IMG/VR virus record: IMGVR_UViG_2617271072_000004
Span: 32,726-96,725 of that record
Reading direction: 5' to 3' (one strand)
From: a virus
Taxonomy: Duplodnaviria > Heunggongvirae > Uroviricota > Caudoviricetes
Length of the DNA: 64,000 nt
Part shown: positions 3 through 53,036 of the stretch, in pieces
How positions within the stretch are numbered: the first letter of the stretch is position 1
How the letters are laid out: the number at the start of each line of letters is the position of its first letter
Notes under the pieces: generated by a model
What the model was told of the DNA's origin: nothing
What the model saw: the letters and a program-made list of their open reading frames with translations, nothing else
Databases searched by the model: none
Position numbers and translations under genes: made by a program

Positions 3-122
3 ATTGCTGAACACTACTCAAAGATATCCAATCAGGAGTACCGCATCACCCAAGACGACCTGGATGATCTCACTGACACAATCGAATATCTCATGGCCAC
101 TAACCAGCCAGACTCACAATAA
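3..122 (+). CDS. coi: C-terminal fragment of a small protein immediately upstream of c1 (position of coi, C1 inactivator); 5' end cut by window edge
   Basis: Frame-3 reading ...IAEHYSKISNQEYRITQDDLDDLTDTIEYLMATNQPDSQ* ends 110 bp before c1 start; protein-like composition; position matches coi-c1 operon of P1 as recalled. Confidence 0.4.
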   Translation: MAEHYSKISNQEYRITQDDLDDLTDTIEYLMATNQPDSQ

Positions 123-138
123 ATGCACTAATAAATCT
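122..138 (+). promoter_or_regulatory. C1-operator-like site (14/17 match to ATTGCTCTAATAAATTT) between coi and c1
   Basis: aATGCaCTAATAAATcT read on plus strand. Confidence 0.35.
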
Positions 139-4325: not shown

Positions 4326-4396
4326 CCTGTCACCTACTGATTAGCCCATGTCAACTAATCAACGTGGAATATAATACCCTCGATTAAAGAAATAGC

Positions 4397-4413
4397 AATA
4401 CATTAGAGCAATT
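4397..4413 (-). promoter_or_regulatory. C1-operator-like site (14/17) upstream of lpa-like gene
   Basis: minus-strand reading AtTGCTCTAATgtATTg; -35-like TTGCTC, 17-bp spacer, -10-like TTTAAT. Confidence 0.5.
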
Positions 4414-9227: not shown

Positions 9228-9464
9228 TTAGTGAGTTAGCAGTTCCAGTTCATTTTTGATGATTTCCGCATGAGCATCATCGTTATCAACACTTAGCTCG
9301 TTTAATGCTTCTCGCACTACATCAACTTCTTCAGGCTGAAAGAAGTCGTCGCGGTAATCACCAAATAGAACCGAAACCAGCCTGCCACCAGCAACATCAA
9401 GATTGGCGCTAACAGGTGGCTCTTTGCCATCCTCAAATTCGACTACAAAAGTTAATTTTCCCAT
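9228..9464 (-). CDS. hypothetical acidic protein (78 aa)
   Basis: ORF only. Confidence 0.45.
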   Translation of the reverse strand: MGKLTFVVEFEDGKEPPVSANLDVAGGRLVSVLFGDYRDDFFQPEEVDVVREALNELSVDNDDAHAEIIKNELELLTH

Positions 9465-9540
9465 CGTTACCCCCAGAAGATAAAAATAGCGGCAATCGCC
9501 ATAGCTACGCCTACAATCGCAAATGCTTCAGGCCAGCTTA

Positions 9541-10740
9541 TTACCTCACCTCCAGTCTCCATACCGCCTGACCAATCCGGCTGGCATGGGTATCTTTGGA
9601 TACTGTTCCATCTTTAGCCAGCTCCATAAGAATTTTGCGCAAATCTGCCGACCGCCATTCTTCATCAGGAAATTCCTTCTCCATTGCCAACCGCAGATTC
9701 CAGGTTGCCATCCTGAATGGATATTCCCCGCCGAGAGCTTTATCTTGCAGGGCAGCCCGGGAACGCATCACCTGCAAAACCTTCTCTTTTACATCCATCA
9801 TTTCGCCTCCTGCGGCGGTTCTGGTAGCGGCATCCAGAACAAGGCGTTCCCTACCCTGAAGCATGGCAGCGTGGCAGGCATCCTCTACGCCTTTAACTGC
9901 ATCTGCGCAGTAGTTATAGCGATTGCATTCCACTAACTTCTGCTTGAGATTTTCAATTGCTTGCGCGACATCATCCTGTATTTCCGGAACTGGCGGAACG
10001 GCTGTCTGCTGCTCTCGAACGTCATTAGTCGCTATCGGTTCTGCTGCCAACTGACTGGCATATTTGTTAATGGTAACGATAAGCTCTTGCTCAGCCTCAT
10101 CCAGACAATCACCGATACCTCGCCTGTCACCGTCAAAATCATCGAAATCGGCACGAATCCTGGCAACCTTCAGGATTGCGGACAACACCTCACTAGGAAT
10201 TGCCGGATAGTTGGTTGACGTTTCCGCGATTTCCCGAAAATTATTGGTTGACGAATTCTTGTTTTCCCGAAAGTTTCCGGACTGAAGCATGGCGGCGCGG
10301 CAGGCGTTAAGCGCGTTTTGCACGCGTTTAGCGTTCTGTACTTCGTATTTAGGTGCGGCTGCCAATGCCCATAGCCAACCAATTTCATAGCTATCAGCTT
10401 TTGATAGAGCACATTCCATTTCCAGTGTTATTTTCTTAGGTACGAGTTGCCAATCATCTGGCACTACCGGTGCTGGCAGCTCGCGATACAGCGAGATTAC
10501 ACGACGCGGGTCCGCATATTTATCTGGCGGACACTGAAATATCTCACCGAAACCATACTTCCTGACATCGCGCAGTTCCTCTTCATCAGTCCATGCCACC
10601 GGTTCTGCTTCCAGCGATGCCAGAGCAATCCGTGCCAGCTCTTCCGCTTCTTCTGCTGGCAGTACAACGTTGCTACCAGGTCCGTATGTTTCGCGCCACT
10701 GCTTGATTGTCAGCAGTCGCTCTTTGGTAATAGTGATCAT
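9541..10740 (-). CDS. hypothetical protein (399 aa) with internal repeated motif (NACRAAMLQSG / DACHAAMLQGR); start overlaps upstream nuclease-like gene (ATGA)
   Basis: Long ORF, translational coupling with 10737..11252. Confidence 0.6.
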   Translation of the reverse strand: MITITKERLLTIKQWRETYGPGSNVVLPAEEAEELARIALASLEAEPVAWTDEEELRDVRKYGFGEIFQCPPDKYADPRRVISLYRELPAPVVPDDWQLVPKKITLEMECALSKADSYEIGWLWALAAAPKYEVQNAKRVQNALNACRAAMLQSGNFRENKNSSTNNFREIAETSTNYPAIPSEVLSAILKVARIRADFDDFDGDRRGIGDCLDEAEQELIVTINKYASQLAAEPIATNDVREQQTAVPPVPEIQDDVAQAIENLKQKLVECNRYNYCADAVKGVEDACHAAMLQGRERLVLDAATRTAAGGEMMDVKEKVLQVMRSRAALQDKALGGEYPFRMATWNLRLAMEKEFPDEEWRSADLRKILMELAKDGTVSKDTHASRIGQAVWRLEVR

Positions 10741-11252
10741 GCCGCGTTTCCTTCTTTCTTATTAACAATTACACCGTCATATATTTCATTAAGGTGCCCT
10801 CTCAACTCCATGCGCCTTAATGCAGATAACATGTAATCGCATTCAACCTGCTTATTTCCAGTAAATGGCTTATCGTCAGGATTACCCCAACAGCAATTAC
10901 CCTTGGGCCACCCATGTACTTTCCGTACTCTTCCGTTAACAACGTGAAGTAATCCCCAGCCAGGTGGTAAATCCTCAATTGAAATAATTCCCGGCTCACT
11001 AATAAAGAATCGCCAGTCGCCCATGCCAAGTGAGGGATTTTTACGGAAACGCTTTTTTCTATCTGCCAACAAGTCAGCACGAGAACACTTCGCCTCTATC
11101 AGGCATGATGCTGAATTTCTGAACCCCATAGCATCTGGCTGTTCTCCGGTACTGGTTACAGCTATAAAGCGGTCATGAAAACAAACCTTGAACCCGTTGC
11201 GCTTAAGGAACTTGTACGCAATTTGACAGAGTTCGCGGTGTGTTAACGCCAT
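10737..11252 (-). CDS. PD-(D/E)XK nuclease-fold protein, MmcB-like (about 171 aa from MALTHREL); ORF track extends to 11441
   Basis: Motifs GEQPDAMGF and CLIEAKCSRADLLADRKKRF; RBS AAGGAGAG before internal ATG. Confidence 0.5.
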   Translation of the reverse strand: MALTHRELCQIAYKFLKRNGFKVCFHDRFIAVTSTGEQPDAMGFRNSASCLIEAKCSRADLLADRKKRFRKNPSLGMGDWRFFISEPGIISIEDLPPGWGLLHVVNGRVRKVHGWPKGNCCWGNPDDKPFTGNKQVECDYMLSALRRMELRGHLNEIYDGVIVNKKEGNAA

Positions 11253-11787
11253 ATCACTCTCCTTTAGTGCGCAAATGGTTTTTCCAGCGGTTTTGCGCCG
11301 CGCTGGGCTTTTGCAAAAACCACAATCCATCATCCCGTAATATTTCATCAACCCCATCCGTCGGTTGCTGAGTCTCACCCACTGCCAGACGCCAGGAGCG
11401 TTTCTACGAACTAACAGAATCTTTGCTTTACGGTTTTTCATCTTACAGCGTACCCTTTCTTCCGCCTGTTCTGTGACGCAGTAGGCTTACGCTTTGCGGC
11501 AAAAGCCACCTGACCAAATGGATGGAGTACCGCTATCTTATGGTTGCTAATAACCAGCTCCACCACACGCACAGGTCGCTGTAAAAAAAAGTCGTTTTGC
11601 CTTACGGTTTTTCATCGCTTTGCTCTCCTGCGTCTCTTTGCTGCTCGTCGTGCCGCTGCAATACCGGTATGGCGGCGCTTTGGTGCCGGGATGATGTTGT
11701 CAGCCATCAGGACATGTGGCTTTGCAATTAGCGCAGAAGCCCAAAAACGAGTCGGGTACGGTAACAAGCCGATACATGCCACACGCA

Positions 11788-12486
11788 CTACTCACCTCCG
11801 TTGATGCGAATGCCAGCGGCACGGGAATCATTCCATCGCTTTACTTCTTCACGAATTACGTCAATGCATTCTTTCGAATCCATTAGGTAATCTTCATCAA
11901 AAAGCCTTTCCTGTTCGTTTTCTATCGCAACAATGATTGCTTCAACTAACTTTTGTGCCTGAGAACCACTTTCTAACTCTGCAATGCGCTTCTCTGCGGC
12001 TTCCAGCTTCTCGCGCATATCGTCAACGTACTCGACCAGAGATCCGCCAGCAGGAATTTCGCACTCCTCGACCAGTTGGAAGTAGATATCAGCTGCGGCC
12101 CGTGTGTTGCTATGCCTAGCGTCGCCCATCTCACCTTCACGAAGAGCATCGCGTTCGGCGGTAAGATTGGCTATTTTGCTGTCTTTGCCTTCCAGCTCAA
12201 CGCGAAGCCTCCCTACCGTTAGCGCAATTTCCTCGTTCTCCTGGTCACGGCGTTTGATGTATTGCTGGTTTCTTTCCCGTTCATCCAGCAGCGCCAAGAC
12301 GGTAGCCGGATTGGCTGCGGCGATGAATTCAGCATCACGAGATTCGTTTTCACTGAACACCATAGCTATTTGCTCATGCTTTATGCCGTCAGTGGAGTAA
12401 ATCTCATCGTCGAATTCAACAGCCCACTTACCTTTCGTAGCCTTCTCCGCCGCCTCGCGCAGTTCTTGATAGTTAATTTTGCTCAC
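11788..12486 (-). CDS. Ead/Ea22-like family protein (232 aa), GTG start
   Basis: N-terminus VSKINYQELREAAEKATKGKW; coiled-coil middle; RBS AAAGGAGGC. Confidence 0.55.
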   Translation of the reverse strand: MSKINYQELREAAEKATKGKWAVEFDDEIYSTDGIKHEQIAMVFSENESRDAEFIAAANPATVLALLDERERNQQYIKRRDQENEEIALTVGRLRVELEGKDSKIANLTAERDALREGEMGDARHSNTRAAADIYFQLVEECEIPAGGSLVEYVDDMREKLEAAEKRIAELESGSQAQKLVEAIIVAIENEQERLFDEDYLMDSKECIDVIREEVKRWNDSRAAGIRINGGE

Positions 12487-13195
12487 TGGTTGCCTCCTTT
12501 GCGAAGCTGGGCAGCAAAGTCAACTAACCACTCAGTCATTTCAACCTTCCCTACCAGGTCTGAACCAGGGTGCATACAGCAATCACTCTGCGCCGCTTTG
12601 AAATCCTTATACTCATATTCTTGGGCCACCAGATTTTTGCAGCTTCTATAGCAGCATCCACCCCCTGCGCCCGAACTTCAGCCAGGAAAGCGTCGGTGGC
12701 TGGAATTTGCGGCATCCCTCCGTCTGTTGCGCAGATATACGCATCAGATATTTCATCCTGCTGGCCATCAAACACGTAGCAACAGCCCCTGATAAACAGC
12801 TTCATTGAGGCATTCTCCACTGCCAGCGCCGTGCGATTACCATCCAGCTCTGCAATGCGCTGTTTTGCGGCATCCAGTTCAATCGACAATTTTTCCAACT
12901 GCTCTTGATGCTTCTTGTATTCCTGATATGCGTGCCAAGACTGACCTTTGCGCACACTATCAGTGATATCAGTAATCTGTTCTGGTGTTAGCGTGGTCAG
13001 TGGCTGTGATGGGAAAATAAGCACTTTCCCGGAATCCCAATCAAAACCAGCGTGAATTGACTGAACCTCAACTGAAGGTGTTGAACCAATGCTGCCAGGC
13101 GAATGAACAACGATTGTTACATCCATATCGCGACGATGGCTGTGGTTGTTGGACAAAATACGATTCACCAACTCAGAAAATTTGGAAAATTTCAT
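12483..13195 (-). CDS. paralogue sharing the PATDAFLAE(V/I)RA block with 13479..14179; frame broken near 12640 (A-run)
   Basis: ORF 12551..13195 plus alternate-frame C-terminus ...EMTEWLVDFAAQLRKGGNQ* paralogous to neighbour C-termini. Confidence 0.45.
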
Positions 13196-13483
13196 GCTGA
13201 TTCCCCTTTCTCTGCTCTCTCCTGTCGGAACATCACTATCATCAGGTCGCCTTTTGTCGCTATCCTGGCTGTTGTACCTGGTTCAATGCGGCTAAGCTCA
13301 AATGCGTCATAGAACGCTTCTAATGCCTTCTGGCGTAGTTCCTGTTTGCGCCGTTTTTTCCACTGTTTTAGGAAAATGGAACCCAGCCATCGCCATGTAC
13401 GGGACATGATGTAAAGCCAACCGAGAAGTGCCAGACCGGTATTTAGGAGCGTATCGATCGTTATTGTCGTGTCGATATTCACT
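13192..13483 (-). CDS. small membrane protein (about 97 aa), GTG start overlapping upstream stop
   Basis: Hydrophobic LLNTGLALLGWLYIM; ORF track over-extends upstream. Confidence 0.4.
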
Positions 13484-14179
13484 GGCTGCTTCCTTTGCGA
13501 ATCTGTTCCGCCCATTCTTCAAGGGATTTCTCCGCATATTCACCAGACAGGCCATCAATCGGATGCGCTTCATTAGCCAACTCTTCTTTCGCTGACAAAA
13601 TCATGCGTGTAACGTCGAAAACTTCACGCAAAGACTTATTGATAAATCCGTGATTGAACGCAGCAGCAAGACGGCTGGCGGTATAGTTAATCCCCTCGTT
13701 GCGTGCTTCCGCACGAATTTCAGCCAGAAAAGCATCGGTAGCTGGAGTTTCGCTGTGGTGTAGGGCATCGTTGATAATCATTGCAGCAACACCAGCCTGC
13801 CCTGCATCCGTGACCGACACATGCTCAAGAGTTACGGCCATTGCGTGTTTCAGCCCGGCGTTCTCTGCCACCAGCGCCGCGAGCTTAGTCTCAAGCGGTG
13901 CTATTCGGCACATAGCATCAATATTTGTGTCCTCCAGGCGCTTAATTTCACCAAGTAGCGCCAGTGCAACCTTTGGGTTGAATGCGGCAACATAACGAGC
14001 GTTGTTCTCTGCGTTTTTCAGCCCATCAAAGCCGGTCCATTTGATAACATCTTCACATCGTTTATCACCGGGCGTATGCACCGCATACGTACCAGTACCC
14101 GGCGAAATAAATGCGACCCATTCGCCCTGTGTTGCCTGTTTTGCTATCTCACGCAGTGCCCGGTAATTAATTTTGCTCA
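13479..14179 (-). CDS. Ead/Ea22-like family protein (about 233 aa), GTG start; ORF track extends to 14216
   Basis: VSKINYRALREIAKQATQGEW N-terminus preceded by AAAGGAGGC RBS. Confidence 0.55.
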
Positions 14180-16248: not shown

Positions 16249-16265
16249 AGATTTATTAGAGCAAT
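16249..16265 (-). promoter_or_regulatory. C1-operator-like site (16/17) with TTGCTC-N17-TAAAAC promoter geometry
   Basis: plus strand agATTTATTAGAGCAAT at 3' end of HAD-like gene. Confidence 0.55.
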
Positions 16266-18341: not shown

Positions 18342-18358
18342 ATTGCTCTAATAAAAAA
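18342..18358 (+). promoter_or_regulatory. C1-operator-like site (14/17), inverted relative to the others
   Basis: ATTGCTCTAATAAaaaa. Confidence 0.45.
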
Positions 18359-18391: not shown

Positions 18392-18408
18392 GGAATTATT
18401 AGAGCAAT
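18392..18408 (-). promoter_or_regulatory. C1-operator-like site (14/17) abutting stop codon of glycosyltransferase gene
   Basis: ggaaTTATTAGAGCAAT. Confidence 0.45.
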
Positions 18409-51347: not shown

Positions 51348-51364
51348 AAATTTATTAGAGCAAA
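51348..51364 (-). promoter_or_regulatory. C1-operator-like site (16/17) upstream of kilA-repL
   Basis: plus strand AAATTTATTAGAGCAAa. Confidence 0.65.
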
Positions 51365-53019: not shown

Positions 53020-53036
53020 AAATTTATTAGAGCATT
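53020..53036 (-). promoter_or_regulatory. C1-operator-like site (16/17) at head of immI (c4-icd-ant) region
   Basis: plus strand AAATTTATTAGAGCAtT. Confidence 0.65.

What the first reader, a model, noticed from the sequence alone, without database searches (positions are those of the whole stretch)
9541..11640. Translationally coupled MmcB-like nuclease and 399-aa partner, with duplicated pseudo-start
A PD-(D/E)XK nuclease-fold protein (about 171 aa) overlaps by ATGA a 399-aa protein with an internally repeated motif. Upstream, the sequence ATGAAAAACCGTAA(A/G)GCAAA occurs twice (about 11617 and 11441), each after an RBS; the first copy encodes a 22-aa peptide followed by a T-run. This suggests a leader-peptide or attenuator arrangement, or a duplication scar. 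A two-gene nuclease module is a common architecture for small defence or DNA-processing systems.
Basis: partly seen in the sequence, partly recalled or inferred. Interest (0 to 1): 0.5.

Follow-up and report, generated by a model that had tools for sequence, protein, structure and literature searches.

The report
Phage nuclease gene beside sequencing-error ORFs
This is an ordinary stretch of accessory genes in a P1/P7-like phage-plasmid that contains a real but uncharacterised small DNA-cutting enzyme; the odd "duplicated start", 22-aa peptide and 234-aa reading frame come from two neighbouring sister genes distorted by single-base errors in A/T runs.

Summary
The window is a P1/P7-like phage-plasmid. 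The finding lies in its variable accessory block, called the "hea operon" in P7.

- **Coupling, confirmed, but no fixed partner.** The ATGA overlap is present in 46 of 46 relatives. The downstream gene varies from 114 to 468 aa and differs in other genera.
- **The 399-aa ORF is a fusion.** A 341-nt deletion joined a DUF551-family gene remnant in frame to an intact 86-aa gene.
- **The duplicated start is two genes.** It marks the N-termini of tandem paralogues of 58 and 62 aa (phrog_1380).
- **The 22-aa peptide and 234-aa ORF are probably artefacts.** They exist only because this record has T8 instead of T7 and A4 instead of A5. The record shows the same ±1 deviations throughout, and these split dnaB and other genes.
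- **No attenuator and no defence signature.** No terminator, RNA structure or Rfam match was found, and PADLOC gave no hit.

Low interest.

The parts
16249..16265 (-). C1-operator-like site (ATTGCTCTAATAAATCT). It sits just downstream of the pap-like phosphatase gene, where P7 annotates Op(hea). It is the likely control point of the long minus-strand operon that contains the finding.
   Evidence: 1 mismatch to the operator consensus; 11 sites in the window against 0.18 expected. P7 annotation and sequence. Function is inferred from P7, not shown.
11788..12486 (-). ead/Ea22-like protein, 232 aa. It is the upstream gene of the coupled chain.
   Evidence: Pfam PF13935, E = 1e-27. Its TAG stop overlaps the GTG start of the next ORF.
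11612..11788 (-). Small ORF of 58 aa with a very basic C-terminus (phrog_13831). It is intact here, and its stop overlaps by ATGA the first MKNRKAK start.
   Evidence: The exact protein is on at least 1000 contigs.
11438..11615 (-). Small-gene paralogue A (phrog_1380). It is 58 aa (MKNRKAKRLFLQRPVRVV...) in relatives with T7. In this record T8 cuts it to a 22-aa ORF (11547-11615) plus an orphan 44-aa frame (11438-11572).
   Evidence: (T7 in 44 contigs, T8 in 3), (E = 6.5e-23, full length). Variable sites by codon position 3/2/10.
11583..11590 (-). T8 homopolymer, T7 in relatives. It is the probable one-base insertion error that creates the '22-aa leader peptide'.
11254..11441 (-). Small-gene paralogue B (phrog_1380; WP_000797279.1). 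It is 62 aa in relatives and ends at TGA one base before the nuclease ATG. In this record A4 shifts the frame and fuses it to the nuclease ORF, giving 234 aa.
   Evidence: and (E = 1e-40). 37% identical to paralogue A. Codon-position pattern 5/6/14.
11309..11312 (-). A4 homopolymer, A5 in 120 of 120 related contigs. It is the probable one-base deletion error that creates the 234-aa ORF.
10737..11252 (-). 171-aa PD-(D/E)XK nuclease-fold protein (equals P7 Upf89.0; phrog_9263 / phrog_631). AAGGAG lies 6 nt before the ATG. Conserved residues are E37, D40, E53 and K55.
10737..10740 (-). ATGA stop/start overlap between the nuclease gene and the downstream gene.
   Evidence: Conserved in 46 of 46 IMG/VR contigs that carry a 171-aa copy.
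9541..10740 (-). 399-aa ORF: an in-frame deletion fusion of the first 296 codons of a 427-aa DUF551-family (Upf89.5-like) gene to the downstream 86-aa gene.
   Evidence: exact protein P0121 on 222 contigs; parental locus L132, 341-nt deletion; PGAP annotates only fragments.
9851..9856 (-). Deletion junction (…CTTCAGGGTAG|GGAACGCC…) with short microhomology. The DUF551 domain has been removed.
9541..9801 (-). Intact 86-aa gene (phrog_2814; WP_000969524.1; PGAP calls its frameshifted copy in the relative L131 an 'eaa protein') with its own AGGAGG and ATG. It now lies inside the 399-aa frame.
10211..10275 (-). 33-nt tandem repeat inside the 399-aa ORF (NFRENKNSSTN / NFREIAETSTN).
   Evidence: family D1.

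Best explanation
**What the locus is (shown).** Region 9541-11640 is part of a long minus-strand operon of accessory genes in a P1/P7-like phage-plasmid. The genes are of the lambdoid exo-xis / nin type.

**Native gene order, taken from relatives (shown).**
1. ead/Ea22-like gene
2. 58-aa ORF
3. 58-aa ORF
4. 62-aa ORF
5. 171-aa nuclease
6. a variable DUF551-type gene

Each gene is joined to the next by overlapping or abutting stop and start codons, so ribosomes probably re-initiate from gene to gene.

**The duplicated start (shown).** It is simply the conserved N-terminus (MKNRKAK) of the two tandem phrog_1380 paralogues, the second 58-aa ORF and the 62-aa ORF.

**The odd ORFs (inferred with high confidence).** In this record two one-base homopolymer deviations truncate the first paralogue to 22 aa (T8 for T7) and fuse the second to the nuclease as a 234-aa ORF (A4 for A5). 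The same ±1 pattern runs through the whole record, so these are most likely sequencing or assembly errors.

**The 399-aa 'partner' (shown).** It is a real, widespread allele. A 341-nt deletion removed the DUF551 domain and joined the gene remnant in frame to the next gene (86 aa). That gene keeps its own ribosome-binding site.

**The nuclease.**
- Shown: it is the P7 Upf89.0 family and has a PD-(D/E)XK fold.
- Shown: D40 and E53-x-K55 are conserved and sit where the canonical motif sits.
- Shown: it is remotely related to MmcB-like and Hjc-like nucleases.
- Inferred: it is a Mg2+-dependent nuclease acting on damaged or branched DNA. It would be made when C1 repression is lifted and would help phage replication, recombination or repair on its own, without a dedicated partner.
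For: **Identity of the element and block**
- Searches identify the element and the block.
- The literature calls this 'variable region 8' of P1-like phage-plasmids (PMC9603915).

**Homopolymer deviations**
- Searches show the two indels against a 99.6%-identical plasmid.
- two independent complete plasmids agree with each other at every site where the window differs by ±1 in an A/T run.
- in the window these sites split dnaB, a 405-aa gene, a glycosyltransferase-like gene and a 242-aa gene. The dnaB and glycosyltransferase-like pieces are otherwise 100% identical to the relatives' proteins.
- A5 in 120 of 120 contigs; T7 in 44 of 47.
- the fused 234-aa protein is absent from the collection; the 58-, 58- and 62-aa proteins are each on at least 1000 contigs.

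**Small paralogues**
- both belong to phrog_1380 and are 37% identical end to end.
- variation is concentrated at third codon positions in both small ORFs and in the nuclease.

**The 399-aa fusion**
- parental locus, with the deletion mapped to the base.
- the exact protein is on 222 contigs.

**Nuclease**
- AF2 model with pLDDT 84.
- 3dnx is PF06319 MmcB-like, E = 4e-30.
- A profile of distant relatives hits 3dnx at E = 1.9e-4.
- 29 of 45 relatives touch Pfam Hjc and 12 of 45 touch MmcB-like, all below threshold.
- BFVD fold hits include phage 'MmcB-like DNA repair' proteins.
- D40 is invariant; E37, E53 and K55 are conserved in at least 90% of sequences, down to 34-54% identity.
- MmcB is a PD-(D/E)XK endonuclease involved in mitomycin C resistance (PMC9578287).

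**Stand-alone gene**
- In Morganella, Serratia and Klebsiella the gene sits in the nin region with different neighbours.
- In E. coli prophages the ATGA-coupled partner falls into at least five N-terminal classes and ranges from 114 to 468 aa.
Against: - No raw reads are available. The two indels could be real mutations, for example from a mismatch-repair-deficient host. T8 is also seen in 2 other contigs.
- Nuclease activity, substrate and timing of expression are untested.
- The C1-operator link is inferred from the P7 annotation and one near-consensus site about 4.6 kb upstream.
- The window protein itself gives no Pfam or NCBIfam hit even at E ≤ 10, so 'MmcB-like' rests on fold and profile evidence.
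- Within E. coli the downstream gene is nearly always a DUF551-type protein. A loose functional link between the two is therefore not excluded.
Confidence: 0.78

Rival explanations
1. The A4 and T8 states are genuine mutations, from slipped-strand changes or a mutator background. In this plasmid the small genes are then really inactivated or fused, possibly as reversible phase variation of nuclease expression.
For: - Both changes are in homopolymers, which are natural slippage sites.
- T8 occurs in 2 other IMG/VR contigs.
- phrog_9263 is a 230-position profile that spans the small ORF and the nuclease. Some fused forms therefore exist in other phage records.
Against: - A4 is absent from 120 of 120 contigs, and the fused protein is absent from 15 billion proteins.
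- The record carries about 20 further ±1 deviations in A/T runs. They include frameshifts of dnaB and three other genes, and the dnaB and glycosyltransferase-like pieces stay 100% identical in protein sequence. That is the pattern of sequencing error, not of selection.
Confidence: 0.1
2. Leader-peptide or attenuator control: translation of the 22-aa ORF governs termination at the T-run and so controls expression of the nuclease.
For: A short ORF with a Shine-Dalgarno-like sequence and a T8 run is present in this record.
Against: - The T-run lies inside the ORF.
- No terminator-like hairpin is found on the minus strand between 9503 and 12600.
- The fold energy equals that of shuffles, z = 0.30.
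- There is no Rfam match.
- In 44 of 47 relatives the ORF is a 58-aa gene of a recognised PHROG with a coding-type substitution pattern.
Confidence: 0.02
3. The nuclease and the downstream DUF551-type protein form a functional two-gene module, for defence, anti-defence or DNA processing. The variable partner would supply specificity.
For: - The ATGA overlap is conserved in 46 of 46 E. coli prophage copies.
- Most partners end in a DUF551 domain.
- P7 has the same pair, Upf89.0 and Upf89.5.
Against: - Partners fall into at least five unrelated N-terminal classes.
- In other genera the neighbour is a dATP/dGTP pyrophosphohydrolase or NinF, or there is no coupled gene at all.
- The allele in this window has lost the DUF551 domain yet is found on 222 contigs.
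- No PADLOC model matches either protein.
- Only the first five codons (M-I/T-T-I-T) are shared across partners. That looks like a recombination joint rather than an interaction surface.
Confidence: 0.07
4. The 171-aa protein is a free-standing mobile (homing-type) endonuclease whose cuts promote its own spread and the mosaicism of accessory regions.
For: - The family occurs in very different phage contexts: exo-xis-type block, nin region and a Mu-like baseplate module.
- The gene is always tightly wedged between neighbours.
- The family has 3265 representatives at 50% identity.
Against: - There is no extra DNA-binding domain.
- The closest relatives by fold and profile are repair or resolvase-type enzymes (MmcB-like, Hjc), not known homing endonuclease families.
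- No test of insertion polymorphism at a conserved target was made.
Confidence: 0.08

Closest known systems
Phage P7 Upf89.0 and Upf89.5 (hea operon; GenBank AF503408)
   Same: - Same 171-aa protein, with the same ATGA-coupled downstream gene (432 aa, 71% identical to the first 75% of the 399-aa ORF).
- Same position between pap / Op(hea) and hot / humD.
   Different: - P7 has no small ORFs between the Ead-like gene and upf89.0.
- P7 Upf89.5 has a different C-terminus.
- Both P7 proteins are annotated 'unknown protein function'.
MmcB-like DNA repair nucleases (Pfam PF06319; structure 3dnx, SPO1766; Caulobacter MmcB)
   Same: - Shared D … IE(A/C)K-SR-(A/S)D-(F/L)-AD motif.
   Different: - The window protein does not reach the Pfam threshold; there is no hit even at E ≤ 10.
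- It has an extra conserved C-terminal part (GWGLL … KPF-x-NKQ-x-E … RR).
- It is a prophage or phage-plasmid accessory gene, not an SOS-regulated chromosomal gene.
Archaeal Holliday-junction resolvase Hjc (Pfam PF01870)
   Same: - Small PD-(D/E)XK enzyme of similar size.
- 29 of 45 distant family members give weak Hjc hits.
- The profile touches Hjc structures at E = 0.2-0.3.
   Different: - All hits are far below threshold.
- There is no evidence of junction resolution.
Lambdoid exo-xis / ea region mosaic proteins (Ea22, DUF551-containing variants)
   Same: - The 399-aa ORF derives from a DUF551-family protein next to ead/Ea22-like genes.
- Ea22 genes of Stx phages are described as mosaic, with portable C-terminal domains that include DUF551 (PMC10834534).
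   Different: - This allele has lost the DUF551 domain by deletion and is fused to the next gene.
- No function is known for the remaining part.
- The AF2 model is uninformative, with pLDDT 39.

Membership tests
PD-(D/E)XK nuclease superfamily | αβββαβ core fold | tested here: met
   [not shown]
PD-(D/E)XK nuclease superfamily | Conserved acidic residue at the start of β2 and (D/E)-x-K in β3 | tested here: met
   D40 (…QPDAMGF) is invariant. E53 and K55 (LIEAK) are invariant in close relatives and conserved in at least 90% of relatives down to 34% identity. Their positions agree with strands E41-45 and E48-54.
PD-(D/E)XK nuclease superfamily | Metal-dependent nuclease activity | not testable with these tools
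   Needs purified protein.
Pfam PF06319 MmcB-like | Score at or above the Pfam gathering threshold | tested here: not met
   No Pfam hit for the 171-aa protein at E ≤ 10. 12 of 45 distant relatives hit PF06319, with best E = 2.9e-4. Control: a 90-aa fragment of 3dnx scores 104.8 bits against a cut-off of 22.
Pfam PF06319 MmcB-like | Structural and motif similarity to the family's solved member (3dnx) | tested here: met
   [not shown]
Pfam PF06319 MmcB-like | Role in repair of crosslink damage, under SOS control | not testable with these tools
   The context here is a phage accessory operon with a C1-operator-like site. No LexA box was looked for.
Hjc Holliday-junction resolvase (PF01870) | Pfam threshold and close structural match | tested here: not met
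   [not shown]
Leader-peptide transcription attenuator | Short ORF followed by a terminator hairpin plus T-run, with alternative structures, conserved among relatives | tested here: not met
   No terminator-like site nearby. Fold z = 0.30. No Rfam match. The 22-aa ORF is present in only 3 of 47 relatives and is otherwise a 58-aa gene.
Known anti-phage defence systems (PADLOC-DB) | Match of either protein to a defence-system model | tested here: not met
   No families at E ≤ 0.1 for the nuclease, the 399-aa ORF, the three small ORFs or the Ead-like protein.
Dedicated two-gene operon module | The same partner is conserved next to the nuclease across relatives | tested here: not met
   The ATGA overlap is conserved in 46 of 46 copies, but partners fall into at least five N-terminal classes and range from 114 to 468 aa. 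Neighbours differ in Morganella, Serratia and Klebsiella.
phrog_1380 small phage proteins (tandem paralogues) | Full-length match of both MKNRKAK ORFs to one family | tested here: met
   The 62-aa ORF gives E = 1e-40 over 1-62 of 62. The 58-aa ORF (T7 form) gives E = 6.5e-23 over 1-60 of 62. Pairwise identity is 37%, E = 5e-10.
DUF551 (PF04448) proteins | Presence of the DUF551 domain | tested here: not met
   No Pfam hit in the 399-aa ORF. The domain was removed by the 341-nt deletion and is present in the 427-aa parental form.

The most novel reading that the evidence does not exclude
The Upf89.0-type protein may represent a large phage-borne branch of the MmcB/Hjc-like PD-(D/E)XK nucleases. 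The branch has about 3,300 clusters at 50% identity and no Pfam, NCBIfam or PADLOC model. It could have a function of its own, such as resolving branched or cross-linked replication intermediates. Alternatively it could be a mobile nuclease that creates the mosaic joints of the exo-xis / nin / hea accessory regions. The conserved ATGA joint to DUF551-type genes might then reflect a real functional link.
Probability: 0.15. Interest if true: 0.5.

Novelty: new member of a known kind. Interest (0 to 1): 0.15.

Why it matters
Little of this is new.

- The locus shows how homopolymer miscalls in a record can imitate regulatory features (a leader peptide) and novel fused proteins.
- It shows how an in-frame deletion can turn two mosaic accessory genes into one long ORF that looks like a designed 'partner'.
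- The one item of lasting value is the 171-aa nuclease family. It is widespread in temperate phages of Enterobacterales and beyond, and clearly PD-(D/E)XK. No curated model captures it, and RefSeq even annotates it as pseudogene fragments in near-identical plasmids. A family model and a simple biochemical test would remove a recurrent 'hypothetical protein' from thousands of prophage annotations.

Tried and rejected
- **Family scans of the nuclease, the 399-aa ORF and the small ORFs.** Pfam, NCBIfam and PADLOC gave nothing above threshold.
- **Sequence search of PDB with the single protein.** Only noise. It became informative only with a profile of distant relatives.
- **AF2 of the 399-aa ORF with a 26-sequence alignment.** Mean pLDDT was 38.9, so the model is unusable and no fold search was run.
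- **Foldseek against AFDB50.** The library was not available.
- **Context of distant family members.** Most contigs were too short to be informative. One showed a Mu-like baseplate context.
- **Attenuator reading.** Rejected after the terminator scan, RNA fold and Rfam search.
- **'234-aa protein is the real gene'.** Rejected. About 171 aa is the conserved length across genera, and the fused sequence is unique to this record.
- **Literature search for the P7 hea operon.** Two searches failed on term length. Only a general paper on variable regions of P1-like phage-plasmids was found.
Full report
**Where we are.** The 2.5-kb stretch around the finding matches 93-100-kb E. coli plasmids of the P1/P7 type at 99.3-99.6% identity (the six closest records). 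It matches phage P7 and many Stx and lambdoid prophages in pieces. In the closest plasmid (pMTY10828_p0111) the neighbours are terminase, lpa, phd-doc, humD and the theta subunit on one side. On the other side are ead/Ea22-like genes, a PAPS reductase, an ASCH protein, a phosphatase (pap) and pmgS. This is the block that P7's annotators call the hea operon, with a predicted C1 operator Op(hea). A survey of P1-like phage-plasmids lists it as highly variable 'region 8' (PMC9603915). The window has a near-consensus C1 operator at 16249-16265 in the same position. All genes from there down to about 7742 are on the minus strand and tightly packed.

**Checking the observation.**
- The ORFs, the ATGA overlap at 10737-10740, the internal repeats of the 399-aa ORF and the two copies of ATGAAAAACCGTAA(A/G)GCAAA are all present.
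- The T-run is inside the 22-aa ORF, not after it.
- A continuous 234-aa ORF (10737-11441) also exists in this record.

**The duplicated start and the odd ORFs.**
- The window is identical to the 99.6% relative from 9400 to 11307. It then differs by two one-base homopolymer changes: A4 against A5 at 11309-11312, and T8 against T7 at 11583-11590.
- With A5, the second MKNRKAK start opens a 62-aa ORF that stops one base before the nuclease ATG. With T7, the first start opens a 58-aa ORF whose stop overlaps the second start by ATGA.
- Both proteins match phrog_1380 over their full length and are 37% identical to each other. They are tandem paralogues, and the repeated 20-mer is their shared N-terminus.
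- A third 58-aa ORF (11612-11788, phrog_13831) links them to the ead/Ea22-like gene, again by overlapping stop and start.
- Among IMG/VR contigs that carry this segment, all 120 have A5. Of the 47 contigs that carry the first copy, 44 have T7 and 3 have T8.
- The fused 234-aa sequence is absent from a 15-billion-protein collection. The three small proteins are each on at least 1000 contigs.
- Allelic variation in both small ORFs and in the nuclease is concentrated at third codon positions: 3/2/10, 5/6/14 and 8/8/34. This fits real coding genes.

**Why I call the two indels artefacts.**
- Two independent complete plasmids, from Japan and South Korea, agree with each other at every site where the window deviates by ±1 in an A/T run. 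There are about 20 such sites over 36 kb, plus those near the finding.
- In the window these deviations split dnaB (ban), a 405-aa gene, a glycosyltransferase-like gene and a 242-aa gene. The dnaB and glycosyltransferase-like pieces are otherwise 100% identical to the relatives' proteins.
- That is the signature of homopolymer miscalling. A mutator origin cannot be excluded without reads; I give it about 10%.
- Either way there is no attenuator. There is no terminator-like site in the region, no excess RNA structure (z = 0.30) and no Rfam match.

**The nuclease.**
- The conserved protein is about 171 aa (160-176 aa) across Escherichia, Klebsiella, Lelliottia, Cronobacter, Pectobacterium, Serratia, Morganella and Providencia. 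It is P7 Upf89.0.
- An exhaustive profile search finds 3265 representatives at 50% identity.
- None of Pfam, NCBIfam or PADLOC recognises it. PHROGs lists it as unknown (phrog_9263 / phrog_631).
- AF2 gives a confident model (pLDDT 84).
- A fragment of 3dnx scores 105 bits on PF06319 MmcB-like.
- A profile of distant relatives hits 3dnx by sequence at E = 1.9e-4, aligning PD…IE(C/A)K-SR-DF-AD.
- Relatives touch Pfam Hjc (29 of 45) and MmcB-like (12 of 45), all below threshold.
- BFVD fold hits include phage 'MmcB-like DNA repair' proteins.
- D40 is invariant; E37, E53 and K55 are conserved in at least 90% of sequences. D40 and E53-x-K55 sit where the canonical motif sits.
- 'PD-(D/E)XK, remotely MmcB-like' is therefore supported as a resemblance. 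Formal membership of PF06319 is not met.
- MmcB itself is a PD-(D/E)XK endonuclease implicated in mitomycin C and cisplatin resistance (PMC9578287).

**The partner.**
- The exact 399-aa protein is on 222 contigs, so it is a real allele. Yet PGAP annotates only fragments there: an 86-aa gene, a DUF551 pseudogene piece and an N-terminal pseudogene piece.
- A parental locus (L132) explains this. It has a 427-aa DUF551 protein followed, by ATGA overlap, by an 86-aa gene.
- The window is collinear with L132 at 99.9% and then skips 341 nt at a short microhomology, …CAGGGTAG|GGAACG….
- The deletion removes the DUF551 domain. Because 341 ≡ 2 (mod 3), it brings the remnant into the frame of the 86-aa gene through 17 residues read out of frame. 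The 86-aa gene keeps its AGGAGG and ATG.
- The 'internally repeated motif' AC(R/H)AAMLQ is the recurrent linker of this mosaic family.
- AF2 of the fusion was uninformative, with pLDDT 39.

**Is it a two-gene module?**
- In 46 E. coli prophage contigs the nuclease stop always overlaps a downstream start by ATGA, and the next five codons are M-(I/T)-T-I-T.
- Beyond that the partners fall into at least five classes of 114-468 aa. Most end in DUF551.
- In Klebsiella the coupled neighbour is a dATP/dGTP pyrophosphohydrolase. In Morganella it is NinF. In Serratia there is none. In all three the gene sits in the nin region between the replication genes and Q.
- A distant relative sits in a Mu-like baseplate module.
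- The nuclease therefore behaves as a stand-alone accessory gene with a conserved recombination joint at its 3' end, not as half of a fixed pair.

**Most likely mechanism.**
- Shown: a polycistronic, stop/start-coupled chain of accessory genes, and a nuclease fold with an intact catalytic motif.
- Inferred: expression on C1 derepression, and a Mg2+-dependent activity on damaged or branched DNA that helps phage replication or recombination.
- The rival readings are real phase variation, attenuation, a two-gene defence module and a homing-type nuclease. They are listed with their tests.

**Verdict.** The locus is ordinary mosaic accessory DNA of a P1/P7-like element. Its most eye-catching features come from homopolymer errors and a deletion fusion. 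The nuclease family is a genuine but modest piece of 'dark matter': a new, unmodelled member of a known kind. Interest 0.15.

Noticed in passing
window 9159, 14311, 16791, 18353, 19899, 20844, 23429, 23482, 24372, 29101, 39257, 40804, 43076, 46996, 47093, 50094: The record deviates by ±1 (once by 3) in homopolymer runs, nearly all A/T, from two independent plasmids that agree with each other at the sites both cover. The changes split dnaB/ban (29101), a 405-aa gene (23482), a glycosyltransferase-like gene (19899) and a 242-aa gene (24372). Any ORF-level oddity elsewhere in this window should be checked against this first.
   Followed up: yes
L130 11074-11252 and 9541-10740 (NZ_CP134391.1); L131, same region: RefSeq/PGAP does not call the intact 171-aa nuclease gene in near-identical plasmids. 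It gives a 179-nt 'frameshifted' pseudogene instead, and it breaks the 399-aa ORF into three fragments. No NCBIfam model covers the family, which may be why it goes uncalled.
   Followed up: partly
L131 (NZ_CP148447.1), equivalent to window 9756: This plasmid has a 2-bp deletion (CCCGGG to CGGG) that frameshifts the 86-aa gene; PGAP labels it 'eaa protein, frameshifted'. It is a second, independent lesion in the same gene block.
   Followed up: no
window 122-138, 4396-4412, 16249-16265, 18342-18358, 18392-18408, 22017-22033, 32353-32380, 35886-35902, 51348-51364, 53020-53036: There are eleven C1-operator-like sites (up to 3 mismatches to ATTGCTCTAATAAATTT), against 0.18 expected. One overlapping inverted pair at 32353-32380 includes a perfect copy.
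   Followed up: no
window 21136-21711 (-): A second, unrelated PD-(D/E)XK / VRR-NUC nuclease gene (192 aa, WP_000943613.1) lies about 10 kb away in the same element.
   Followed up: no
L134 1377-1823 (ENA ERZ25746247 contig): A distant member of the nuclease family (P0367, 148 aa) is wedged between a Mu gp43-like DNA circulation protein and a gp44-like baseplate hub. It overlaps both neighbours. This is an unusual place for a nuclease gene.
   Followed up: no
window 11824-14173: The ead/Ea22-like segment upstream of the finding is not collinear with the closest plasmids. It is about 415 bp longer and only patchily similar; for example, window 13719-13971 matches L130 12771-13023 at 93.7%. This points to further module shuffling among the ead/Ea22 paralogues.
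   Followed up: no
phrog_9263 (230 positions) against window 10737-11441: A PHROG profile spans both the small ORF and the nuclease. Fused or mis-called long forms therefore exist in other deposited phage genomes as well.
   Followed up: no
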